Position numbers and translations under genes: made by a program. The notes beneath the pieces were generated by a model. It was given only the letters and a program-made list of their open reading frames with translations, did not search any database and was not told the origin of the DNA. A DNA stretch of 25,932 nt from a virus. Lineage: Duplodnaviria > Heunggongvirae > Uroviricota > Caudoviricetes. Shown here one piece after another: positions 1,449 through 23,312 of this stretch (positions within the stretch are counted from its first letter, which is position 1; each line of letters starts with the position of its first letter). The stretch lies in IMG/VR virus record IMGVR_UViG_2563366854_000002, positions 1-25,932 of that record, one strand, 5' to 3'.

Positions 1449-2018
1449 CTATTTAACATACTTGACTGTTAAACTTATAATTTTACCAATTATTTCAATG
1501 TCTTCTATCTTGCATTCGAAGGCTCTGTTTCCACCCTCGACGAAGATTCTTCCACCGGGTAAACGAGTAATGTCACGGATCGTTATTTCGCCATCAATAC
1601 TTATTACCCATTTACCATCACGTATATCATCAAATTCTTTATCACAAATAAATTCAGAATTGTTATCTGTGATGACAAAAGGTTTTTTAAACGTAGAGGG
1701 TAGAAATCCCTTATCAAAAATATAAAAACCGTCTTTCTGCAATGCTCCATCAGACAATAAATATTTTTCTACTTCTATAGTATTTGTATTTGCTGATGCT
1801 TGCTTTGAACCATGCCCTGTTGTTAGCCAATTAAGCGAGGTGCCCGTTTCAAGGGCGCACTGGATTACCCAATCTGCTGGAAAAATATCACGCATATAGC
1901 GCGTTGCCATGGTGCTCTTAGAAACACCTAAATGATCACATAGAGCCTGACGGGTACCGAACCCATATGCTTCAACTAAACGTTCTATGGCTTTCTTACC
2001 GCCGCTATTGAAATCCAC
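1449..2018 (-). CDS. cI: Phage CI-type repressor (HTH plus C-terminal domain), 186 CI-like; start uncertain (GTG at 2018 with GGAGGA upstream, or GTG at 2105)
   Basis: Translation contains AIERLVEAYGFGTRQALCDHLGVSKSTMATRYMRD (HTH region) and lies divergent to apl and upstream of int, as in 186-like phages; the 2018 start gives ~189 aa. Confidence 0.75.
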   Translation of the reverse strand: MDFNSGGKKAIERLVEAYGFGTRQALCDHLGVSKSTMATRYMRDIFPADWVIQCALETGTSLNWLTTGHGSKQASANTNTIEVEKYLLSDGALQKDGFYIFDKGFLPSTFKKPFVITDNNSEFICDKEFDDIRDGKWVISIDGEITIRDITRLPGGRIFVEGGNRAFECKIEDIEIIGKIISLTVKYVK

Positions 2019-4232: not shown

Positions 4233-5086
4233 GCACCATCCTGAAATGGGCGGGAAATAAAACCGCCATTATGTCCGAACTGAAAAAGCATCTTCCTGCT
4301 GGCCCGCGACTGGTTGAACCTTTCGCGGGTTCCTGTGCAGTGATGATGGAGACGGAGTACCCCAGCTATCTTGTTGCGGATATTAATCCTGATTTAATCA
4401 ACCTCTATAAAAAGGTTGCTGCTGATTGTGAATCGTTTATATCTCGCGCCAGAGTTTTATTTGAGATCGCAAACAGGGGGGGGGCTTATTACAACATAAG
4501 GCAGGAGTTTAATTACTCAACTGAAATTACTGATTTCATGAAAGCGGTATATTTCCTGTATCTCAATCGTCACGGTTACCGTGGTTTATGTCGCTATAAC
4601 AAGAGCGGGCATTTCAACATTCCCTACGGTAATTATAAAAATCCGTATTTCCCTGAAAAAGAAATTCGCGCATTTGCAGAAAAAGCCCAGCGAGCAACGT
4701 TTATCTGCGCCAGCTTTGATGAAACGCTGGCGATGTTGAAGGCGGGGGATGTGGTGTATTGCGATCCGCCGTATGACGGTACGTTTTCCGGCTATCACAC
4801 TGATGGTTTCACTGAAGATGACCAGTATCACCTGGCATCCGTTCTTGAACATCGGTCATCAGAAGGACATCCGGTCATTGTTTCTAACAGTGATACATCC
4901 CTGATCCGTTCGCTGTATCGCAATTTTACTCACCACTATATCAAGGTAAAACGCAGCATCGGTGTGGCAGCTGGCGAGGGTAAATCAGCAACAGAAATCA
5001 TTGCTGTTTCCGGGCCGCGCTGCTGGGTGGGATTTGATTATTCGCGTGGCGTGGATAGTTCTGCCGTGTACGGAGTACGTGCATGA
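4229..5086 (+). CDS. dam: DNA N6-adenine methyltransferase, Dam/D12 class (285 aa)
   Basis: Motif [10 protein letters not shown] and motif IV DPPY ([10 protein letters not shown]) seen in the translation; ATG at 4229 with GGAGG upstream; ATGA overlap with gene A at 5083-5086. Confidence 0.9.
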
Positions 5087-7497
5087 GCCATGCCGATATG
5101 AACAACTGCTGCGGCTTTAACGAGGCTGCCGCAGCGTTCTCATGGAACAGCCCGAAAAAGGCCATTAACCCTTATCTGGACCCGGCGGAAGTTGCGCCGG
5201 TTTCTGCGCTTTCAAACCTGATCGCTCTGTACGCTGCCGATAACGAACAGGAACACCTGCGCCGCGAGGCACTGAGTGATCAGGTCTGGGAGCGTTATTT
5301 CTTTAATGAATCCCGTGATCCTGTCCAGCGCGAAATGGAGCAGGATAAGCTCATTAGTCGGGCAAAGCTGGCGCATGAGCAGCAGCGTTTTAATCCAGAT
5401 ATGGTCATTCTGGCGGACGTCAATGCCCAGCCTTCCCATATCAGCAAGCCGCTGATGCAACGTATTGAATACTTCAGCAGCCTGGGCAGGCCAAAGGCTT
5501 ATTCCCGCTATTTGCGTGAGACGATTAAGCCATGTTTGGAGCGACTGGAGCATGTACGCGACAGCCAGCTATCTGCATCTTTTCGTTTTATGGCAAGCCA
5601 TGTAGGGCTGGACGGCCTGCTGATTCTGCCTGAAATGAGTCAGGATCAGGTGAAACGCCTGTCTACTCTTGTCGCTGCGCATATGAGCATGTGTCTTGAT
5701 GCCGCTTGTGGTGATTTGTACGCCACCGATGATGTTAAGCCAGAAGAAATCCGCAAGACATGGGAAAAGGTGGCAGCAGAAACCCTGCGACTGGATGTTA
5801 TCCCGCCTGCGTTTGAGCAACTTCGTCGGAAAAGAAACCGCCGTAAACCCGTGCCCTATGAACTCATTCCGGGTTCGCTGGCGCGTATGTTGTGCGCCGA
5901 TTGGTGGTACCGGAAATTATGGAAGATGCGTTGCGAATGGCGGGAAGAGCAGTTGCGTGCTGTTTGCCTGGTCAGCAAAAAAGCATCTCCCTATGTCAGC
6001 TATGAAGCCGTGATGCATAAACGTGAGCAGCGCCGTAAGTCGCTGGAGTTTTTCCGTTCTCATGAACTGGTGAACGAAGACGGCGACACGCTGGACATGG
6101 AGGATGTGGTAAACGCCAGCAGCAGCAACCCGGCGCATCGCCGCAATGAGATGATGGCCTGTGTTAAAGGTCTGGAGCTTATCGCAGAAATGCGCAGTGA
6201 CTGTGCCGTTTTCTACACTATCACCTGTCCGTCGCGTTTCCATTCCACGCTCAATAACGGCAGACCAAACCCGACCTGGACAAACGCGACGGTAAGACAA
6301 AGCAGCGATTATCTGGTCGGCATGTTTGCTGCATTTCGTAAGGCTATGCACAAAGCCGGGTTGCGCTGGTATGGCGTGCGGGTGGCTGAACCGCATCATG
6401 ACGGCACAGTTCACTGGCACCTGTTGTGTTTCATGCGCAAAAAAGACCGCCGCGCCATTACTGCATTGTTGCGTAAGTTTGCCATCCGTGAAGACCGCGA
6501 GGAGCTGGGCAATAACACGGGGCCACGCTTTAAGTCTGAGCTGATAAACCCGCGCAAAGGTACGCCAACAAGCTACATCGCGAAATACATCAGTAAGAAC
6601 ATTGACGGGCGTGGTCTGGCTGGCGAGATCAGCAAGGAAACGGGTAAATCCCTGCGTGATAACGCTGAATACGTTAATGCCTGGGCGTCTCTGCATCGTG
6701 TTCAGCAATTCCGCTTCTTTGGTATTCCGGGGCGTCAGGCTTACCGTGAACTTCGCTTGCTGGCTGGTCAGGCGGCAAGGCAACAGGGTGACAAAAAAGC
6801 AGGTGCGCCGGTACTGGATAACCCGCGTCTTGATGCCATTCTGGCTGCTGCTGATGCTGGTTGTTTTGCCACCTACATCATGAAGCAGGGCGGCGTACTG
6901 GTTCCCCGTAAATATCACCTCATCAGAACCGCTTATGAAATCAACGAAGAGCCGACCGCCTATGGCGATCACGGCATTCGTATTTATGGCATCTGGTCAC
7001 CCATTGCAGAGGGCAAGATCTGCACTCATGCAGTGAAGTGGAAAATGGTTCGTAAAGCCGTTGACGTTCAGGAGGCGGCAGCCGACCAGGGCGCTTGCGC
7101 CCCTTGGACTCGTGGCAATAACTGTCCCCTTGCTGAAAATTTGAACCAACAGGATAAAGATAAATCAGCTGATGGGGACACCAGAACGGACATTACCCGC
7201 ATGGATGACAAGGAATTGCACGATTACCTGCACAGTATGAGCAAAAAAGAGCGCCGGGAACTGGCAGCAAGGTTACGCCTAGTTAAGCTGAAACGGCGTA
7301 AAGACTACAAACAGCGAATTACAGATCATCAGCGACAGCAGCTCGTCTATGAGCTGAAGTCCAGAGGATTTGATGGCAGCGAGAAAGAGGTCGATTTACT
7401 CCTACGTGGTGGCAGTATTCCGTCAGGAGCAGGCCTGCGTATCTTCTATCGGAACCAGCGTTTGCAGGAAGATGATAAGTGGCGGAACCTGTATTAA
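5083..7497 (+). CDS. A: Phage replication initiation protein A (rolling-circle endonuclease, 804 aa)
   Basis: Translation has an HxH-type motif ([10 protein letters not shown]) and paired tyrosines ([11 protein letters not shown]) typical of P2 gpA-type initiators; position after the early operon. Confidence 0.9.
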
Positions 7498-7589
7498 TTA
7501 CGCAGGTTAACAATTCGTGCTCTTAATAATACCAGGCATATCAGGCTGATGAACGTAAAAAACGTTTTACATCAGTAATATTATTATAT

Positions 7590-7607
7590 ACTGTAAATAC
7601 AAACAGT
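7590..7607. promoter_or_regulatory. LexA (SOS) box CTGT-N8-ACAG, overlapping a possible promoter (TTTACA 7566-7571 / TACTGT 7589-7594)
   Basis: Sequence aCTGTaaatacaaACAGt read directly; exact 16-mer spacing of the LexA consensus; lies upstream of the 62-aa ORF and the dinI-like gene. Confidence 0.6.
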
Positions 7608-7648
7608 GGTTATGTATACAGTGTTGCTTTGGTGTCATAGGAGGAAAG

Positions 7649-7837
7649 ATGCAGGACTATTTTTTGGAGTCTTTGAAGCTCCAGCGCATTGATTTTTTTC
7701 TTAAGCTTGTAGCGGCTAGTGAGTGTAGTGATGAAGAGAAGGGGCTGGCTCTGCAGTGGGTTTCTGAACTGACAGATGAACTCATGGCAAAAATCAGAAC
7801 CCACGAATACAACCGCTCAATGGATGTCATCAGCTGA
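7649..7837 (+). CDS. Small protein (62 aa), possible Tum-like antirepressor N-terminal module
   Basis: Strong SD AGGAGGAAAG directly upstream of ATG; downstream of the LexA box; the Tum analogy comes from gene position only. Confidence 0.5.
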   Translation: MQDYFLESLKLQRIDFFLKLVAASECSDEEKGLALQWVSELTDELMAKIRTHEYNRSMDVIS

Positions 7838-7847
7838 GGTGGCTTTT

Positions 7848-8081
7848 ATGCGCATTGAAATAATGATCGATAAAGAGCAGAAGATTAGCCAGTCTACCCT
7901 GGACGCCCTTGAATCCGAGCTTTACCGTAATTTGCGCCCTCTGTATCCCAAAACAGCAATTCGTATCCGTAAGGGCAGCGCCAATGGCGTTGAGCTGAGC
8001 GGGTTAAAACTGGATGAAGACAAAAAGCGAGTGATGGAAATAATGCAGCAGGTCTGGGAGGACGATAGCTGGCTGCATTAA
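7848..8081 (+). CDS. DinI-family protein (77 aa)
   Basis: Translation MRIEIMIDKEQKISQSTLDALESELYRNL...MEIMQQVWEDDSWL resembles DinI (N-terminal MRIE..., C-terminal acidic W-containing tail); ATG at 7848 with GAGGTGG upstream. Confidence 0.8.
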   Translation: MRIEIMIDKEQKISQSTLDALESELYRNLRPLYPKTAIRIRKGSANGVELSGLKLDEDKKRVMEIMQQVWEDDSWLH

Positions 8082-8089
8082 GAAACATT

Positions 8090-8120
8090 GTAGGCGTCAG
8101 AACTTGATTCTGACGCCTAC
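8090..8120. terminator. Perfect 13-bp inverted repeat hairpin (gtaggcgtcagaa / ttctgacgcctac) at the boundary between phage core and cargo
   Basis: Read directly; lies between the convergent dinI-like gene (+) and the three-gene operon (-); no strong T-run. Confidence 0.4.
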
Positions 8121-8176
8121 GAGGTTGAACAACGAGTAAGGCGAGGCGTTAGGTGAAGTAACTCCTTATAAGCCAT

Positions 8177-8860
8177 CTATGATTGAAGGGTGACTTTTTT
8201 TAACGTATCAAAAACGATTTTCGTAAACTCATTCTCATTTCTAACATCAATATAAGCAAGGCCGCTATTGGTGATCTTGAGCTTACCGGAATATTCTAAT
8301 GAATTAACAGAGCAAACAAGCCTGTCAATTCTTATTTTTTTACCCTCTAATTCTTCTTTATAATACTTCCTAAGATCATTGCTGCCAATTATTTGCATTT
8401 TAGCTGTGGCGTAATCAGAAACTCTAACCCTTGAAATATCAAGTTGTGTTAAATTGATATTTACACTTGAAGATATTTCATTAAGCCAGTCTATAGGGTT
8501 TATGTCAATTTCTTCCAAACTAACACCTAAGCCAAGATTTTTTACCAAAGCCTGCGAAAAAGGCTTTAAAGTTCTGGGTGGGTTAGTAATCTGCATTACA
8601 GGAAGAGAGTCTAAAGCCACGCTAAAATTTGTGGTGCGATATTCGATTCTTTCAACGGTAGTTTCGCTTCCGTCAAAGCTTAATATTTTATCATGATAAA
8701 CAATACGCTCGACAAAGCGACCATTTGCAAAATCATGGCGTATTTTATCAAAAATGAACCCTTTCCCTTTATCCTCTGTAAAAGAATCAAGAGAAAGACG
8801 TCTAACGGCTGTTTCAAACTCAAGCCGTATGTTTAACTTAAGCCATTTAACCTTTTTCAT
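8177..8860 (-). CDS. Cargo operon gene 3: hypothetical protein (227 aa), no family recognised
   Basis: ATG at 8858-8860 with GAGGTGA upstream; overlaps gene 2 by 14 nt; AT-rich. Confidence 0.75.
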   Translation of the reverse strand: MKKVKWLKLNIRLEFETAVRRLSLDSFTEDKGKGFIFDKIRHDFANGRFVERIVYHDKILSFDGSETTVERIEYRTTNFSVALDSLPVMQITNPPRTLKPFSQALVKNLGLGVSLEEIDINPIDWLNEISSSVNINLTQLDISRVRVSDYATAKMQIIGSNDLRKYYKEELEGKKIRIDRLVCSVNSLEYSGKLKITNSGLAYIDVRNENEFTKIVFDTLKKVTLQS

Positions 8861-9926
8861 CTTCGTTCACCTCTGATCCTATTATTATATTATAGGCATT
8901 TTCAGCGGCGGACTCAATTAATTCACTAATATGTTTTTTCTCTTGTGCCGTTGCCGCGCGAATGGTTACATTGAAACCGTCTTCTTTTTGATTGTTTATA
9001 CCTTTAATTTGATAGGCAAAGTCACAGCATTTTTCTGAGTCTTTGAAAAATGCTTCGACGTTGATTCTGTCTCCAATTCCACTTGTCGGCTTTGAAGACC
9101 ATGCAATACGCCCGATATAATAACCTTTCTCATGTAGTTGAGAAAATATAGCTGAACTATTTACCCCTTCACCATTAAGGACGGCTTTCTTAACAAATCC
9201 GGTATCAATAGTTTCTTCCTTGTCTTCATCCTCACTAGCATCAGTACTGCGATTTAATTCGACTTTTGTTACGTCATCAGTCTCATAACCGCGTAGACCA
9301 TTCATTAATTCCTGAAAAAACTGACTTCGCAATGTAGGATCAGTTATTGCTAGTAATGATATTTCGAAGCGCTCGATAGGTTCGGACTTGATTTTAGATA
9401 GCTCGTTTTGCAAGCTCTCAATAACTTTTTTTGCCTCGGGGTTTTGAGGCATACGTACTTCAACTTTGTCAGCTCCAGGGCGAAGTTCTATTATAACATT
9501 CCGCTTGTCGATCTGACGTAATGCAGTTTTAGACAGGTCTATTTCTTCATATTTGTATTCTACTGTAAGCGAGCCATCTTTTTTAGCTACAATATTCAGG
9601 CTTTGACCTTTACTAGGGGAGCATGTTTTTTTTAGTGCTTCAGCAGCACTTTTTAATTCGGCCTGATTTGTTGAGGTTTGGAAGCTCACACTAGTAGTGC
9701 TTTCCCTTGGGTCATATGTTTTGACCAGTTTTTTTATGTGTTCTAATTCATTAAATCCGTGAGGAAGTTTGGATATTTCCTCGATTAGTATTTCCTTGTC
9801 GAGTTCTGGTGATAAAAACACACCTCGATTCAACAATAATTCATGCAACTTTGCAGCGGTTATCCTTTTATGATGTAATGCATCATAAATATTTTTATCA
9901 GTTGCGAAATATAGTTTTTTAGCCAT
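8847..9926 (-). CDS. Cargo operon gene 2: hypothetical protein (359 aa) with an acidic linker between two regions, no family recognised
   Basis: ATG at 9924-9926 with GGAG upstream; TAATG stop/start overlap with gene 1; AT-rich. Confidence 0.75.
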   Translation of the reverse strand: MAKKLYFATDKNIYDALHHKRITAAKLHELLLNRGVFLSPELDKEILIEEISKLPHGFNELEHIKKLVKTYDPRESTTSVSFQTSTNQAELKSAAEALKKTCSPSKGQSLNIVAKKDGSLTVEYKYEEIDLSKTALRQIDKRNVIIELRPGADKVEVRMPQNPEAKKVIESLQNELSKIKSEPIERFEISLLAITDPTLRSQFFQELMNGLRGYETDDVTKVELNRSTDASEDEDKEETIDTGFVKKAVLNGEGVNSSAIFSQLHEKGYYIGRIAWSSKPTSGIGDRINVEAFFKDSEKCCDFAYQIKGINNQKEDGFNVTIRAATAQEKKHISELIESAAENAYNIIIGSEVNEDEKG

Positions 9927-10927
9927 TATCGTTGCTCCATGCCGATTTGTTCAAGATTATATTCAACAACAATTTTGTCTGTCTTGTCGAAGTCAATTTT
10001 AAGAAAAAGTCTTTCATCCTCGCCTAAGAGCCAGTCTGTGCTGTATTTCTTTTTCGCTCTTTCAAAATGATGAATGGCATTTTCATTTGGGTGAATGTGA
10101 CAATGGCGTAATACGATTGGTTTACCTTCGGTTAATATCTGATAAGTTGATAACATATCAAAGAAGTAAACGAATTCGTCTACTGAATCCCCCGGTTGAT
10201 TGTAATAAACAACATATCCCTCAGGGTTTTTATCCCTGAGCCAACTGAAAGCCTCATGCTTTATTATAATGTATGGTGATGTTAATAATTCAATTGTTGC
10301 AGGTGTTGTCTGATTAATAGGGTGCTTTATTCTTGTTAGGGAAAGATCTGGATAATAATATGTGAACTTATCAGGTTGAGGAAGTTTGCCTGAACCAATT
10401 AACTTAGTTATGTCAGAAGATATGTTTATCAAATCTGATATTTTATAAGGGTCAAGCAAATGTAGTTTGATGTTTGGAGGGCAATTTATAGATGAGTGAT
10501 CTAATTTTTTTGTAATATTCTCATAGAAGTCTTTATCATATAAATTATCATGGTTATATAAGAATAATAACCCTCTTACGTTATAACCTAAAGAATCATC
10601 ATGAACATATTTCAATCGCCATTCTTCACTGACATTTGCACACTCGGTAGCTAAAGCAAGCGATGTTAAAGCTCCCTCGACTATTTTTTTCCCAATAGTA
10701 CCTTCTGCATAGCTTTTGAGGTCTGTGTTGAGATAGACCATTTCCTCCTCATATGGATCTATGTAGAAAAATACAACATCGCTTGGATGTGTTTTCTTGG
10801 AATGAGCCTCTTGGCAACAATCCCAATTCATGTCCGCTCTAGCGGCACGATCCCATTTGAACACTGAGAAAATATCATCAGAAATCTTACCCGCGACTCG
10901 TTGTATAGCCGAAGTCTCTCCACCCAT
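9926..10927 (-). CDS. Cargo operon gene 1: hypothetical protein (333 aa), no family recognised; has an R-x4-H spacing (RHCHIH) near the C-terminus
   Basis: ATG at 10925-10927 with AAGGAG 7 nt upstream; first gene of a three-gene minus-strand operon; AT-rich. Confidence 0.75.
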   Translation of the reverse strand: MGGETSAIQRVAGKISDDIFSVFKWDRAARADMNWDCCQEAHSKKTHPSDVVFFYIDPYEEEMVYLNTDLKSYAEGTIGKKIVEGALTSLALATECANVSEEWRLKYVHDDSLGYNVRGLLFLYNHDNLYDKDFYENITKKLDHSSINCPPNIKLHLLDPYKISDLINISSDITKLIGSGKLPQPDKFTYYYPDLSLTRIKHPINQTTPATIELLTSPYIIIKHEAFSWLRDKNPEGYVVYYNQPGDSVDEFVYFFDMLSTYQILTEGKPIVLRHCHIHPNENAIHHFERAKKKYSTDWLLGEDERLFLKIDFDKTDKIVVEYNLEQIGMEQR

Positions 10928-20299: not shown

Positions 20300-20738
20300 A
20301 CTGCAGAAGGTGGACGACTGGCTTAGTGCCTTACTGGCGAATCTGGAACCAGTCGCAAGAAGCCGCATGATGCGCCAGCTGGCGCAGGAACTGCGCCGGA
20401 CACAGCAGCAGAATATCAGGATGCAGCGCAATCCAGATGGCAGCAGTTATGAACCGCGCAAGGTCACGGCGCGCAGTAAAAAAGGCCGCATCAAACGTCA
20501 GATGTTTGCAAAGCTGCGCACCACCAAATACCTGAAAACTGCCGCCAGCGCCGATTCTGCCAGCGTGCAGTTTGAAGGTAAGGTGCAGCGCATTGCCCGC
20601 GTTCACCATTATGGCCTGCGCGATCGCGTCAGCCGCAAAGGACCGGAAGTGCGTTACGCAGAGCGTCGTTTGTTGGGTCTTAATGGTGAGTCTTACGTTC
20701 TAACTCTTGATATATTGAATAGATTCCTTCTGTCTTGA
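20292..20738 (+). CDS. S: Tail completion protein S (P2 gpS-like, 148 aa) with a replaced C-terminal ~18 aa encoded by AT-rich inserted DNA
   Basis: Conserved gpS body (..IARVHHYGLRDRVSRKGPEVRYAERRLLGL) then an unrelated tail NGESYVLTLDILNRFLLS where the GC content drops. Confidence 0.8.
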   Translation: MAELQKVDDWLSALLANLEPVARSRMMRQLAQELRRTQQQNIRMQRNPDGSSYEPRKVTARSKKGRIKRQMFAKLRTTKYLKTAASADSASVQFEGKVQRIARVHHYGLRDRVSRKGPEVRYAERRLLGLNGESYVLTLDILNRFLLS

Positions 20739-21486
20739 ATTCACCATATGCCCAATGAATTGCATTTTTTTGTTCAGTCAGAATATATTTCCTAACTTTT
20801 TTAGAATAGTGAATGGTCAGTATAAAACCCAAAGAAATCCATAATAGAATAAATATGGTTGTTGGGGCAAAGGAATAGATAAAGAATTTGTCTTTAACGA
20901 AATTCTTGACTTCTTCATCAATGTAAGCATTCCCTTCATCAGTGGTTAGTAGTTTACAAAGAATTTCTTTATGTTCGATAGTTAATGATTTGTACTTCTC
21001 TGTACTGGCAGAGGATGACTCTTCGCAATCATCCTTTGATATTTCCCAATCAGGAGTGGTTAATATTGTAGCTGCAGTCGCCAGTTTTTTTGACATATAA
21101 AATGATTCACCGGATTTTATCCAATAAAGCAATGTGCTATTTGGTGGGGTTCTAATGGCTTGGATGAAAACTGGACCAAAAATATAAATTGCACACAAAA
21201 AAAGAAGTGAAAAGAGAACCGTGATTGATTTTTCAGCCCATGTGATAGTAGGCAGCCTTTTTAATGATATTCGTATAAGAAAAAAATTCAATATAAACGC
21301 AGGTATTCCTGATTTTTTCAAAATTACATCATGAGATTTTCTATATTTGAATAGTGCTCTTATAACTATCGTCACCAAAGTTATAACAGCTCCAATAATG
21401 GAAATCCATGCGGCAAGTGCCGCTGCCGGGGTGTTTAAAAATTCAGCATTAAATATATTAGAACTTATTGGATTCATAACACTCAT
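20680..21486 (-). CDS. Polytopic membrane protein (268 aa), unknown function, in an AT-rich insert between S and V
   Basis: ATG at 21484-21486 with AGGTGGA upstream; several hydrophobic helices; 19 G+C in the 60 nt of line 21181; opposite strand to the flanking late genes. Confidence 0.65.
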   Translation of the reverse strand: MSVMNPISSNIFNAEFLNTPAAALAAWISIIGAVITLVTIVIRALFKYRKSHDVILKKSGIPAFILNFFLIRISLKRLPTITWAEKSITVLFSLLFLCAIYIFGPVFIQAIRTPPNSTLLYWIKSGESFYMSKKLATAATILTTPDWEISKDDCEESSSASTEKYKSLTIEHKEILCKLLTTDEGNAYIDEEVKNFVKDKFFIYSFAPTTIFILLWISLGFILTIHYSKKVRKYILTEQKNAIHWAYGEFKTEGIYSIYQELERKTHH

Positions 21487-21589
21487 TTATCCACCTATTG
21501 GTTGTTTTTTATCCTTTTATCAATTTGTACCATCGATACCACAATTTGCAAGAAGTTATAAACAAGTTTTCAGCTGTCATCATATATCT

Positions 21590-22768
21590 ATGAACGCACA
21601 ACTAACCGAAATCATGCGCCTTATCACCAATCTGATCCGCATAGGTGTAGTCACCGAAGTGGACCGGGAAAACTGGCTTTGTCGGGTGAAAACGGGCGAC
21701 CTTGAAACCAACTGGATTAACTGGCTGACGCTGCGCGCGGGTATCACCACTGTGCTGGACAACCGCCTGATGGGGCTTACGCTGACGGATAACCGGGGCT
21801 TTGAAGCGGACCAGCTTGATCTGGAGCTGGACGACGCTGACGGAAAAATCGTGCTGCCGCGCCGTGGTGCGGTCATTACGCTGGCGCTGGGCTGGAAGGG
21901 GCAGCCGCTTTTCCCGAAAGGGGCATTCACGGTGGACGAGATTGAACACACTGGCGCACCGGACCGCCTGACTATCCGGGCGCGAAGCGCTGATTTTCGG
22001 GAAACGCTGAATACCCGTCGTGAAAAATCGTGGCACAAGACCACGGTCGGGGAAGTGGTGAAGGAAATAGCTGCGCGTCACAAACTGAAGATGGCACTGG
22101 GTAAAGACCTGTCGGATAAACCCGTGGAGCATATAGACCAGACTAATGAGAGTGACGGCAGTTTTTTGATGCGGCTGGCGCGCCAGTACGGTGCCATTGC
22201 ATCGGTGAAAAATGGCAATCTGTTATTCATCCGGCAGGGACAGGGCAAAAGCGCCAGCGGTAAACCACTGCCGGTGATCACTATCATACGTAAGGACGGC
22301 GACAGTCACCGCTTTACCCTGGCAGATCGCGGAGCTTACACGGGGGTAATTGCCAGCTGGTTGCATACCCGCGAACCCGCGAAGAAAGAAAGCACTACGG
22401 TGAAGCGTAAGCGCAGGACTAAGAAGCAGAAGAAAGAGCCGGAAGCGAAGCAGGGCGATTACCTGGTGGGGACGGATGAAAACGTGCTGGTACTTAATCG
22501 CACTTATGCCAACCGGAGCAACGCCGAACGAGCGGCAAAAATGCAGTGGGAACGCCTGCAACGCGGCGTTGCGTCATTCTCGCTACAACTGGCGGAAGGG
22601 CGGGCAGATCTCTACACGGAAATGCCTGTGAAGGTCAGTGGTTTTAAACAGCCGATAGATGATGCGGAATGGACTATTACCACCCTGACGCATACTGTCA
22701 GCCCGGATAACGGTTTTACGACCAGTCTGGAGCTTGAAGTGAAGATTGATGATTTCGAAATGGAATGA
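21590..22768 (+). CDS. Chimeric in-frame ORF: N-terminal ~48 aa of baseplate spike V fused to late control/tail protein D (392 aa)
   Basis: The first ~48 aa (MNAQLTEIMRLITNLIRIGVVTEVDRENWLCRVKTGDLETNWINWLTLRAG) match the gpV N-terminus pattern; the rest (LTLTDNRGFEADQLDLELDD...FTTSLELEVKIDDFEME) matches gpD; no W, J, I, H, G, F, E, T or U genes are present. Confidence 0.8.
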   Translation: MNAQLTEIMRLITNLIRIGVVTEVDRENWLCRVKTGDLETNWINWLTLRAGITTVLDNRLMGLTLTDNRGFEADQLDLELDDADGKIVLPRRGAVITLALGWKGQPLFPKGAFTVDEIEHTGAPDRLTIRARSADFRETLNTRREKSWHKTTVGEVVKEIAARHKLKMALGKDLSDKPVEHIDQTNESDGSFLMRLARQYGAIASVKNGNLLFIRQGQGKSASGKPLPVITIIRKDGDSHRFTLADRGAYTGVIASWLHTREPAKKESTTVKRKRRTKKQKKEPEAKQGDYLVGTDENVLVLNRTYANRSNAERAAKMQWERLQRGVASFSLQLAEGRADLYTEMPVKVSGFKQPIDDAEWTITTLTHTVSPDNGFTTSLELEVKIDDFEME

Positions 22769-22858
22769 TTCTTCGCAATGGAGAACTTTTAAGTTTTCAA
22801 AATGGAATAATGCGGTATCATTATTGTGAATTTAGCAAAAATGGGGAGAACTCGAAAA

Positions 22859-23077
22859 ATGATGATTTGCCCACTGTGTGGAAGTGCCGCCCATACTCGC
22901 AGCAGTTTTCAGGTATCTTCATTGACCAAAGAGCGTTACAACCAGTGCCAGAACATTAACTGCAGCCATACTTTTGTTACCCATGAAACTTTTGTTCGTT
23001 CGATTGCAACGCCAAAAGAGTCAAATCCGGTTCAGCCGCATCCAATGAAATCAGGACAGGTGGCGCTCTCTCTTTGA
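22859..23077 (+). CDS. ogr: Ogr-type zinc-finger late-gene activator (72 aa)
   Basis: CPLCGSAAH...CQNINCSHTF four-Cys motif and length match P2 Ogr / K-12 OgrK; ATG at 22859. Confidence 0.85.
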   Translation: MMICPLCGSAAHTRSSFQVSSLTKERYNQCQNINCSHTFVTHETFVRSIATPKESNPVQPHPMKSGQVALSL

Positions 23078-23151: not shown

Positions 23152-23199
23152 GGCAACAAAAAACCCATCAACCTTGAACCGAAATGGCGGGGTTGATGG
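23152..23199 (-). terminator. Probable Rho-independent terminator of ybjL (10-bp stem cccatcaacc/ggttgatggg, T-run on the minus strand)
   Basis: Inverted repeat read directly; AAAAAA at 23155-23160 on the plus strand gives the U-tract for the minus-strand transcript. Confidence 0.6.
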
Positions 23200-23312
23200 G
23201 CTCCACAAAATGGGGACATCAAAGAAAAGCAGTGGCACTAATTAAGACTGATGCCCTGCGGAAAAGTTCTGCGGTTGTGCAAAAAAATTTCATTTTCAGG
23301 GCAACTTCAGTT

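What the first reader, a model, noticed from the sequence alone, without database searches (positions are those of the whole stretch)
7560..8081. SOS-controlled tum/dinI-like locus, apparently split into two ORFs
A textbook LexA box (CTGT-N8-ACAG at 7591-7606) overlaps a plausible promoter and precedes a 62-aa ORF with a very strong SD, followed 10 nt later by a DinI-family gene. In phage 186, SOS induction works through the LexA-repressed tum gene, whose product is an antirepressor with a DinI-like C-terminal part. Here the two parts are in different reading frames, so the module is either bicistronic or a frameshifted tum. This bears on whether the prophage is UV or mitomycin inducible.
Basis: partly seen in the sequence, partly recalled or inferred. 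Interest (0 to 1): 0.45.

Follow-up and report, generated by a model that had tools for sequence, protein, structure and literature searches.

The report
LexA-controlled tum–dinI prophage induction operon
This is the well-known DNA-damage switch of Fels-2/186-type P2-like prophages: a LexA-repressed two-gene operon with a 62-aa Tum antirepressor followed by a DinI homologue. It is not a broken gene, and here it sits in a prophage that has lost its tail genes.

Summary
A LexA box (7591-7606) lies in the gpA-downstream intergenic region. It is followed by a strong Shine-Dalgarno sequence, a 62-aa ORF (7649-7837), a 10-nt gap and a 77-aa DinI gene (7848-8081) in another frame.

The split is not a frameshift. 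The same two-gene layout is found in Fels-2 (ORF 98% identical), E. coli HS prophage DuoHS (61/62), SopEPhi, 80 of 80 IMG/VR loci and about 1100 E. coli genomes. The gap varies between relatives (3, 10, 11 or 12 nt), and both genes are under purifying selection (dN/dS about 0.08).

The ORF is a distant homologue of the 186 Tum N-terminal domain. This shows at profile level only.

Published work settles the function. PSP3 annotates tumA and tumB. Lemire et al. 2011 describe the split tum of Fels-2 and PSP3. The Phollow study deleted exactly this ORF in DuoHS and lost mitomycin C induction, as did lexA(Ind-).

New details found here:
- The operator is a colicin-type double overlapping SOS box (7591-7621).
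- One identical Tum allele pairs with four divergent CI classes.
- This prophage copy carries a 10-kb tail-gene deletion.

Verdict: already known; low interest.

The parts
7566..7571 (+). Putative -35 hexamer TTTACA of the SOS promoter (counterpart of 186 p95)
   Evidence: Invariant in six diverged relatives while the 17-nt spacer varies. Same geometry as the annotated 186 p95, TTCACA-N18-TACTGT. Not picked up by the consensus scan because the -10 is weak. The role is inferred.
7589..7594 (+). Putative -10 hexamer TACTGT, which overlaps the left arm of LexA box 1
   Evidence: Identical to the hexamer annotated as the p95 -10 in the 186 record. Invariant in relatives. An alternative -10, TATACT at 7587-7592 with a 15-nt spacer, cannot be excluded.
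7591..7606 (+). LexA (SOS) box 1, CTGTAAATACAAACAG
   Evidence: Conserved upstream of every Tum-type gene examined, including those without dinI. Exact in 75 of 80 IMG/VR loci.
7606..7621 (+). LexA box 2, GTGGTTATGTATACAG. It shares one G with box 1, giving a colicin-type double overlapping operator.
   Evidence: The 31-nt pattern has an expectation of 0.00 in the window. ColE1 has CTGTATATAAAACCAGTGGTTATATGTACAG at L090 5063-5093. Both arms are invariant in the Fels-2 group. Binding of two LexA dimers is inferred from colicin operators (PMC2994835).
7639..7644 (+). Shine-Dalgarno sequence AGGAGG of tum
   Evidence: Lies 4 nt before the ATG at 7649. Invariant in relatives.
7649..7837 (+). tum (tumA type): a 62-aa antirepressor gene, predicted to fold as a two-helix hairpin
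   Evidence: phrog_698 at E 3.6e-38. The 186 Tum N-domain hits the same PHROGs in register. hhalign E 5e-4. 98% identical to Fels-2 STM2728 and to DuoHS ECHS_RS04495. dN/dS about 0.08. The published DuoHS delta-tum primers map to 7629-7651 and 7835-7857. AlphaFold pLDDT 88, helices 2-23 and 28-61.
7836..7842 (+). Shine-Dalgarno sequence GAGGTGG of dinI, overlapping the tum stop codon TGA (7835-7837)
   Evidence: Relatives each have their own SD directly after the tum stop. Translational coupling is inferred.
7848..8081 (+). dinI homologue (tumB type), 77 aa
   Evidence: Pfam DinI at 3.2e-24. phrog_189 profile positions 71-148. 41% identical to 186 Tum 71-145. E. coli DinI structure 1GHH at E 6.6e-9 over the full length. 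dN/dS 0.03-0.08.
8090..8120 (.). Conserved 14-bp stem-loop directly after the dinI stop. Probably the 3' end or terminator of the operon, and possibly bidirectional.
   Evidence: In five phages, 8 of 18 pairs show compensatory double changes. There is no T-run on the + strand, so the function is inferred.
1449..2018 (-). 186-type CI repressor (189 aa from GTG 2018), the presumed target of Tum
   Evidence: Pfam Phage_CI_repr and Phage_CI_C. 87% identical to the DuoHS CI. The target relationship is inferred from phage 186.

Best explanation
The locus is the SOS induction operon of a Fels-2/DuoHS-type P2-like prophage. It is a genuine two-gene operon, tum then dinI, transcribed from a promoter that LexA keeps shut.

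In the lysogen, LexA occupies a double overlapping operator (7591-7621) that covers the -10 region and transcription start. After DNA damage, RecA-stimulated LexA self-cleavage opens the promoter.

The first product is the 62-aa helical-hairpin protein Tum. It inactivates the prophage's 186-type CI repressor by binding to it rather than by cleaving it, and this switches on the lytic genes. The second product, DinI, is translated from its own ribosome-binding site, which overlaps the tum stop codon. It binds RecA filaments and modulates the SOS signal. It is an accessory, not the trigger.

Shown here:
- the anatomy of the locus;
- its conservation and purifying selection;
- homology of both ORFs;
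- a 186-type CI in the same prophage.

Shown by others on near-identical sequence: precise deletion of this ORF, or a non-cleavable LexA, abolishes mitomycin C induction.

Inferred:
- direct Tum-CI binding in this subfamily;
- occupancy of the operator by two LexA dimers;
- the role of DinI.

In this particular copy, induction cannot yield infectious phage, because about 10 kb of tail genes are deleted.
For: Anatomy.

Context: gpA lies upstream, and the same prophage carries a 186-type CI, CII and Fil.

DinI: Pfam 85.5 bits; 41% identical to the 186 Tum C-terminal half; matches PDB 1GHH.

Tum homology:
- The ORF hits phrog_698 (3.6e-38), phrog_8554 (2.4e-8) and phrog_1993 (2e-3).
- 186 Tum residues 1-70 hit phrog_1993 (1.5e-23), phrog_8554 (3.4e-12) and phrog_698 (5.9e-6), in the same register.
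- hhalign E 5e-4 over columns 4-43.

Conserved bicistronic state:
- Fels-2 STM2728 plus STM2726.1.
- PSP3 tumA, annotated 'UV induction of prophage', plus tumB.
- 80 of 80 IMG/VR loci and 10 of 10 genome contexts.
- 1125 of 5426 E. coli genomes.
- The gap is 3, 10, 11 or 12 nt, so there is no fixed frame relation.
- dN/dS is 0.08 at dS about 1.

Tum can stand alone: LexA-boxed Tum-like genes exist without any dinI in ESSI-2, ev040 and a Yersinia phage.

Standalone is the norm: 156 representative clusters, nearly all 45-100 aa. Only two of the best 150 carry a DinI domain.

Regulatory footprint: the -35, the -10 with box 1, box 2 and the SD are invariant among diverged flanks.

Literature:
- Lemire et al. 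2011 (PMC3121763) state that Fels-2 and PSP3 have tum split in two, and that in PSP3 the upstream gene carries the antirepressor activity.
- In Phollow (PMC12055606 and PMC11195241), delta-tum and lexA(Ind-) both block MMC-induced lysis of DuoHS.
- The deletion primers fuse the ATG and TGA of exactly this ORF and leave dinI intact.
- The DuoHS Tum is 61/62 identical and its CI 87% identical to the window's.

186 parallel: the 186 record annotates a separately translated DinI-like Tum95.5 that 'modulates SOS induction'.
Against: - Pairwise BLASTP of the ORF against 186 Tum finds nothing.
- The profile-profile probability is only 31%.
- No biochemical study of CI binding exists for the Fels-2-type Tum. 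The mechanism is carried over from 186.
- The identical Tum allele is found with four CI classes that are only 43-56% identical to one another. This is unexpected for a specific protein-protein antagonist, unless it targets the conserved N-terminal domain.
- The -10 hexamer is weak, and a consensus scan does not call the promoter.
- LexA binding to this sequence was not measured.
- Lemire et al. report no detectable effect of deleting the dinI homologues in Gifsy prophages, so a role for DinI is unproven.
Confidence: 0.9

Rival explanations
1. The two ORFs are the remains of a single 186-type tum gene broken by a frameshift or sequencing error, so the module is a pseudogene and the prophage is not SOS-inducible through it.
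For: The two parts are in different frames, 199 nt apart. In 186 they form one 146-aa protein.
Against: - The identical architecture is found in 80 of 80 IMG/VR loci, 10 of 10 genome contexts, Fels-2, DuoHS and SopEPhi.
- Each ORF has its own SD and is under purifying selection.
- The gap length differs between lineages without loss of either ORF.
- Standalone Tum is the majority form.
- The DuoHS two-gene version is functional.
Confidence: 0.01
2. A full-length Tum-DinI fusion is made by programmed recoding: a +1 frameshift or stop-codon readthrough at the tum stop. The fusion, as in 186, would be the active antirepressor.
For: The dinI frame is open from 7776, overlapping the 3' end of tum. 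In PSP3 and the Yersinia phage MLG42 the two ORFs are in frame, separated by a stop codon.
Against: - There is no conserved frame relation: offsets of 0, +1 and +2 occur among close relatives.
- No conserved slippery or stimulatory motif is present. The weak hairpin at 7826-7843 is absent from relatives.
- Tum-like genes work in phages with no dinI at all.
- The in-frame deletion of tum alone abolishes induction in DuoHS.
Confidence: 0.02
3. The 62-aa protein is needed for induction but does not act as a CI-binding antirepressor. It might, for example, act on another pro-lysogenic factor, on CI synthesis or stability, or on transcription.
For: - Similarity to the biochemically studied 186 Tum N-domain is weak.
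- One identical allele coexists with four CI classes of 43-56% mutual identity and with CIs of 38-57% identity in phage records.
- The DuoHS study shows requirement, not mechanism.
Against: - The profile cross-hits are consistent and in register.
- Genomic position, LexA control and partnership with 186-type CI are the same in all cases.
- The CI N-terminal DNA-binding domain is strongly conserved across the four classes. It offers a common target, and blocking it would explain loss of DNA binding.
- The PSP3 upstream gene is reported to carry the antirepressor activity.
Confidence: 0.07

Closest known systems
tum of E. coli HS prophage DuoHS (ECHS_RS04495) with its dinI (ECHS_RS04500); Fels-2 STM2728 with STM2726.1
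   Same: - Same gene order: gpA, LexA operator, 62-aa ORF, 10-nt gap, 77-aa DinI.
- Tum is 61/62 identical.
- Promoter, operator and tum DNA are about 97% identical.
- The double SOS box is the same.
- The DuoHS CI is 87% identical.
- Deletion of this ORF or lexA(Ind-) abolishes MMC induction in DuoHS.
   Different: - The 3' half of the window's dinI is SopEPhi/PSP3-like, with a recombination breakpoint near 7927.
- The downstream cargo differs.
- A conserved hairpin plus motif follows dinI here but not in Fels-2 or DuoHS.
- The window's prophage has a 10-kb tail-gene deletion.
tumA and tumB of Salmonella phage PSP3
   Same: A LexA-boxed two-gene split tum downstream of gpA. tumA is annotated for UV induction and tumB as a DinI homologue. 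TumB is nearly identical to the window's DinI in its C-terminal half.
   Different: - TumA belongs to a different sequence subfamily with no pairwise similarity.
- The gap is 3 nt and in frame.
- There is a single LexA box, matching the consensus at 19 of 20 positions.
Tum of coliphage 186 (p95 SOS operon)
   Same: - LexA-repressed promoter with TACTGT as both the -10 and the box arm.
- An antirepressor N-domain plus a DinI-like C-domain.
- A 186-type CI as target.
- The DinI-like part is also translated on its own, as Tum95.5.
   Different: - One fused 146-aa ORF.
- A single LexA box.
- orf97 follows in the operon.
- The N-domain is related only at profile level.
dinI-antirepressor (gfoA/gftA) SOS operons of the Gifsy prophages
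   Same: A LexA-controlled operon that pairs a small non-proteolytic antirepressor with a DinI homologue. The antirepressors act in trans across prophages.
   Different: The gene order is reversed (dinI first). The antirepressor and repressor families are unrelated, and the phage is lambdoid.
Double overlapping SOS boxes of colicin operons (ColE1 cea)
   Same: A 31-bp operator of two 16-bp cores that share one G. The second core starts with GTGG. Fels-2 matches the ColE1 operator at 28 of 31 positions.
   Different: It controls a phage antirepressor rather than a colicin. Occupancy by two LexA dimers was not tested here.

Membership tests
LexA-repressed (SOS) promoter | A 16-bp core CTGT-N8-ACAG with an AT-rich spacer | tested here: met
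   7591-7606. The 20-mer matches the consensus at 16 of 20 positions.
LexA-repressed (SOS) promoter | The box overlaps the promoter's -10 or start site and is conserved in orthologous loci | tested here: met
   TTTACA-N17-TACTGT is invariant, and the boxes are invariant among diverged flanks. The geometry matches the annotated 186 p95. The promoter assignment itself is inferred.
LexA-repressed (SOS) promoter | LexA binds, and transcription is derepressed by DNA damage | not testable with these tools
   Indirect only: lexA(Ind-) blocks induction of the near-identical DuoHS prophage.
Tum antirepressor (186 Tum N-domain, PSP3 TumA, DuoHS Tum) | Sequence homology to the Tum N-terminal domain | tested here: met
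   Pairwise BLASTP is negative. The PHROG cross-hits are reciprocal and in register, and hhalign gives E 5e-4. The ORF is 98% identical to the genetically defined DuoHS Tum.
Tum antirepressor (186 Tum N-domain, PSP3 TumA, DuoHS Tum) | First gene of a LexA-boxed unit directly downstream of the gpA replication gene, in a phage with a 186-type CI | tested here: met
Tum antirepressor (186 Tum N-domain, PSP3 TumA, DuoHS Tum) | Required for SOS induction of the prophage | not testable with these tools
   Shown for the DuoHS orthologue by a precise in-frame deletion. The primers map to 7629-7651 and 7835-7857.
Tum antirepressor (186 Tum N-domain, PSP3 TumA, DuoHS Tum) | Binds CI and prevents operator binding without cleaving it | not testable with these tools
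   Known for 186 Tum (Shearwin et al. 1998, as cited in PMC3121763). No data exist for this subfamily.
DinI family | Full-length match to Pfam PF06183 above the gathering score | tested here: met
   85.5 bits against 24.2; residues 14-76 cover profile positions 1-63.
DinI family | A single-domain protein of about 80 aa that aligns with E. coli DinI, including the acidic C-terminal helix and conserved Trp | tested here: met
   1GHH at E 6.6e-9, aligning residues 1-75 to 1-77. The C-terminus reads ...QQVWEDDSW.
DinI family | Binds RecA filaments and modulates RecA co-protease activity | not testable with these tools
   Inferred from E. coli DinI. The 186 record calls the equivalent product a modulator of SOS induction.
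Colicin-type double overlapping SOS operator | Two 16-bp cores sharing one base pair (31 bp), with the second core GTGG-N8-ACAG | tested here: met
   7591-7621 matches with no mismatches and an expectation of 0.00. The ColE1 operator has the same architecture.
Colicin-type double overlapping SOS operator | Two LexA dimers bind, giving tight and late derepression | not testable with these tools
   Stated for colicin operators in PMC2994835. Not measured for tum promoters.

The most novel reading that the evidence does not exclude
The Fels-2-type tum promoter carries a colicin-type double overlapping SOS operator, which 186, PSP3 and ESSI-2-type phages lack. It would bind two LexA dimers and set a high damage threshold for induction.

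In addition, a single invariant Tum allele neutralises at least four CI immunity classes by targeting their conserved N-terminal domain. If so, even a tail-less remnant like this one would still act as an SOS-triggered trans-inducer of co-resident P2-like prophages of other immunity types.
Probability: 0.3. Interest if true: 0.4.

Novelty: already known. Interest (0 to 1): 0.15.

Why it matters
The switch decides whether DNA-damaging agents such as UV, mitomycin C or fluoroquinolones wake a very common family of E. coli, Salmonella and Klebsiella prophages. The module is present in about a fifth of complete E. coli genomes. These prophages carry anti-phage defence cargo directly downstream of it.

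The practical gain is in annotation. RefSeq and most phage records still call the 62-aa gene 'hypothetical protein', although it is the genetically defined Tum antirepressor.

For this strain, the switch is intact but the prophage cannot make tails. SOS induction would therefore be expected to cost the cell without producing infectious phage.

Tried and rejected
- Pairwise BLASTP of the ORF against 186 Tum found no alignment. Profiles were needed.
- PDB sequence search with the ORF family profile gave no hit.
- AlphaFold model plus Foldseek against BFVD returned only unspecific two-helix hairpins, best E 0.49.
- Rfam on the locus found nothing meaningful.
- The consensus sigma-70 scan did not call the SOS promoter, because its -10 is TACTGT.
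- PADLOC has no model for either ORF.
- The primary paper on the Fels-2 tum (Bunny, Liu and Roth 2002) is not held. It is cited only through Lemire et al. 2011.
- A full-text search for the operator string found no paper. Whether the double box of tum promoters has been described remains unknown.
- The second CTGT-N8-ACAG at 7941-7956 was rejected as chance: it is coding, has a C-rich spacer and is not conserved.
- The 101-aa extended DinI ORF was rejected.
- The frameshift and recoding readings were rejected (see rival explanations).
- Co-variation of Tum with CI was looked for and not found.

Full report
**Observation.**
- CTGTAAATACAAACAG lies at 7591-7606, in the 151-nt spacer between the stop of an 804-aa gpA-type replication gene (5083-7497) and a 62-aa ORF (7649-7837).
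- The ORF is preceded by AGGAGG at 7639-7644.
- Ten nucleotides after its TGA, a 77-aa ORF starts at 7848 in another frame. It matches Pfam DinI at 85.5 bits, against a gathering score of 24.2.
- CTGT-N8-ACAG occurs twice in the window, against 0.36 expected. The second copy (7941-7956) is inside dinI, has a C-rich spacer and reads ACGG in Fels-2 and DuoHS, so it is chance.

**Context.** The window is a P2/186-like prophage integrated at the rcdA-rybB-ybjL locus of E. coli.
- It contains an integrase, a 186-type CI (Pfam Phage_CI_repr plus Phage_CI_C), CII (CP76), Fil, a Dam methylase and gpA, followed by the locus in question.
- Next come a variable cargo and then portal, terminase and capsid genes.
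- The presumed target of a Tum-type antirepressor is therefore present in the same element.

**Identity of the two ORFs.**
- The DinI gene is 41% identical to residues 71-145 of 186 Tum. It aligns end to end with E. coli DinI, PDB 1GHH, at E 6.6e-9.
- The 62-aa ORF has no Pfam family and no pairwise BLAST similarity to 186 Tum.
- It belongs to phrog_698 (E 3.6e-38) and also hits phrog_8554 (2.4e-8) and phrog_1993 (2e-3).
- Residues 1-70 of 186 Tum hit the same three families in the same register: 1.5e-23, 3.4e-12 and 5.9e-6.
- A profile-profile comparison of the two families gives E 5e-4 over columns 4-43. Shared positions include R13, C26, A34 and E40.
- The ORF is therefore a distant homologue of the Tum N-terminal domain.
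- AlphaFold predicts a two-helix hairpin with pLDDT 88.

**The split is the normal state, not damage.**
- The same two genes are annotated in Fels-2 as STM2728 and STM2726.1. The ORF is 98% identical, and the promoter and tum DNA about 97% identical.
- They are also annotated in E. coli HS prophage DuoHS (61/62 identical), in SopEPhi, and in Klebsiella and Yersinia phages.
- All 80 IMG/VR loci encoding the identical protein have the LexA box region, the 10-nt gap and a 77-aa DinI. All 10 genome contexts sampled do too.
- The module is present in 1125 of 5426 complete E. coli genomes.
- The intergenic gap is 10 nt in the window and Fels-2, 11 nt in SopEPhi and phi4.1, 12 nt in MLG42 and 3 nt in PSP3. 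The relative frame is therefore not conserved, and each dinI has its own SD.
- Against relatives at dS of about 1, dN/dS is 0.08 for the ORF and 0.03-0.08 for dinI.
- Tum-like genes with a LexA box but no dinI exist in ESSI-2, ESSI2_ev040 and a Yersinia phage.
- In a library of 1.84 billion representatives the family has 156 clusters, nearly all of 45-100 aa. Only two of the best 150 carry a DinI domain.
- The fused 186 gene is thus the exception. Even there, the record annotates a separately translated DinI-like product, Tum95.5, made from a GTG behind AAGGAGGG.

**Regulation.**
- Aligning six diverged upstream regions leaves five invariant islands: TTTACA; TATACTGTA; AACAGTGG-TAT; TACAGT; and AGGAGG-ATG.
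- This fits a promoter TTTACA-N17-TACTGT, like the annotated 186 p95 (TTCACA-N18-TACTGT).
- It also reveals a second LexA-type core, GTGGTTATGTATACAG (7606-7621), which shares one G with the first.
- This 31-bp arrangement is that of the ColE1 colicin operator, CTGTATATAAAACCAGTGGTTATATGTACAG.
- Colicin operators of this kind are described as binding two LexA dimers and preventing untimely expression (PMC2994835).
- 186, PSP3, ESSI-2 and the Yersinia phage have a single box.
- I could not establish whether this double box has been described for tum promoters.

**Literature.**
- Lemire et al. [quoted passage not shown] - The PSP3 record names the genes tumA ('UV induction of prophage') and tumB.
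- The Phollow study (PMC12055606; preprint PMC11195241) made an in-frame delta-tum in DuoHS. Both delta-tum and lexA(Ind-) abolished mitomycin C-induced lysis and formation of viral foci.
- Its primers...ATAGGAGGAAAGATG-TGA-GGTGACTTTTATGCGCATTG, fuse the start and stop of exactly the 62-aa ORF and leave dinI intact. They map to window 7629-7651 and 7835-7857 with one mismatch each.
- The function of this ORF is therefore established genetically on near-identical sequence.

**Mechanism.**
- Shown: the anatomy, conservation, selection, homology and genetic requirement.
- Inferred from 186: Tum binds CI and prevents operator binding.
- Inferred from colicin operators: two LexA dimers occupy the operator and repress tightly.
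- Inferred from E. coli DinI and the 186 annotation: DinI modulates RecA and the SOS response. Lemire et al. saw no effect of deleting the dinI homologues in Gifsy prophages.

**Caveats and extras.**
- The identical Tum allele occurs with four CI classes: 87-100%, about 55%, about 45% and about 43% identical to the window's CI.
- The N-terminal DNA-binding domain of these CIs is much better conserved than the C-terminal domain.
- So either Tum targets that conserved domain, which would allow cross-induction between immunity types, or the mechanism differs from simple specific antagonism.
- The prophage copy in this window is defective. Relative to DuoHS, about 10.35 kb from inside gpV to inside gpD is missing, leaving a chimeric ORF at 21347-22768.
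- That deletion junction occurs in only one of 5426 complete E. coli genomes, strain HSP425, at 100% identity.
- The SOS switch is thus intact, but infectious particles cannot be made without a helper.

**Verdict.** The finding is real and correctly read, and its open question is resolved: it is bicistronic. It is already known and experimentally characterised. Interest is low. The only possibly unreported points are the colicin-type double operator, the pairing of one Tum allele with several CI classes, and a conserved hairpin plus motif after dinI.

**Dead ends.** Pairwise BLAST, the PDB sequence search, Foldseek, Rfam on the locus, the consensus promoter scan and a literature string search for the operator gave nothing.

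Noticed in passing
window 7606-7621 (with 7591-7606): A second LexA-type core, GTGG-N8-ACAG, shares one G with the first. This gives a 31-bp double operator nearly identical in layout to the ColE1 colicin operator. It is conserved in the Fels-2 group and absent from 186, PSP3 and ESSI-2-type tum promoters.
   Followed up: yes
window 8090-8152: The 14-bp stem-loop right after dinI is conserved in PSP3, SopEPhi, MLG42 and phi4.1, with compensatory changes at 8 of 18 pairs. It is followed by an invariant sequence, AGGTTGAACAAC...GCGAGGC.TTAG (8122-8152), of unknown function. There is no T-run on the + strand. Both elements are absent from Fels-2 and DuoHS.
   Followed up: partly
window 8177-10927 (- strand): Three low-GC genes match PADLOC models Hp3, Hp2 and Hp1 (PDLC03006, PDLC03005, PDLC03004) at E 1e-156 to 1e-247. 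From memory this is probably the three-hypothetical-protein anti-phage system of the P2 hotspot; I did not verify that in a paper. They sit in the variable cargo slot between dinI and the portal gene. Other copies of the same Tum carry different cargo there: GmrSD, retron-like RT plus ATPase, AAA plus S8 peptidase, DndB, and others (L093-L102).
   Followed up: partly
window about 7927, inside dinI: There is a recombination breakpoint inside dinI. Upstream of it the sequence is Fels-2/DuoHS-like (dS about 0.06 for tum). The 3' half of dinI is SopEPhi/MLG42/PSP3-like: dS 0.17-0.22, against 0.62-0.66 to Fels-2 and DuoHS.
   Followed up: partly
window 21347-22768, junction at 21739-21743: The prophage is defective. 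About 10.35 kb from inside gpV to inside gpD is deleted relative to E. coli HS DuoHS, removing baseplate, tail fibre, sheath, tube and tape-measure genes. A V'-'D chimeric ORF remains. The junction is found in only one of 5426 complete E. coli genomes (strain HSP425, 100% identical).
   Followed up: yes
window 20680-21486 (- strand): A roughly 900-bp insertion relative to DuoHS lies between the tail-completion gene S and gpV. It carries a DUF6216 gene on the opposite strand. It is also present in E. coli H3.
   Followed up: partly
window 23155-23233 (- strand) and onwards: The RybB sRNA gene (Rfam 105 bits) lies just beyond ogr (22826-23077). It is followed by ybjL and ybjM. The prophage is therefore integrated at the rcdA-rybB locus, and the window's first 44 bases are host sequence (attL side).
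   Followed up: partly
window 1449-2018 (- strand); loci L093-L102: The exact 62-aa Tum protein occurs with four different 186-type CI classes, 43-56% identical to one another. These CIs are strongly conserved only in the N-terminal HTH domain. There is no co-variation between Tum and CI.
   Followed up: partly
window 7941-7956: A second exact CTGT-N8-ACAG lies inside dinI (codons L-Y-P-K-T). It has a C-rich spacer and is not conserved in Fels-2 or DuoHS, so it is judged a chance match.
   Followed up: yes
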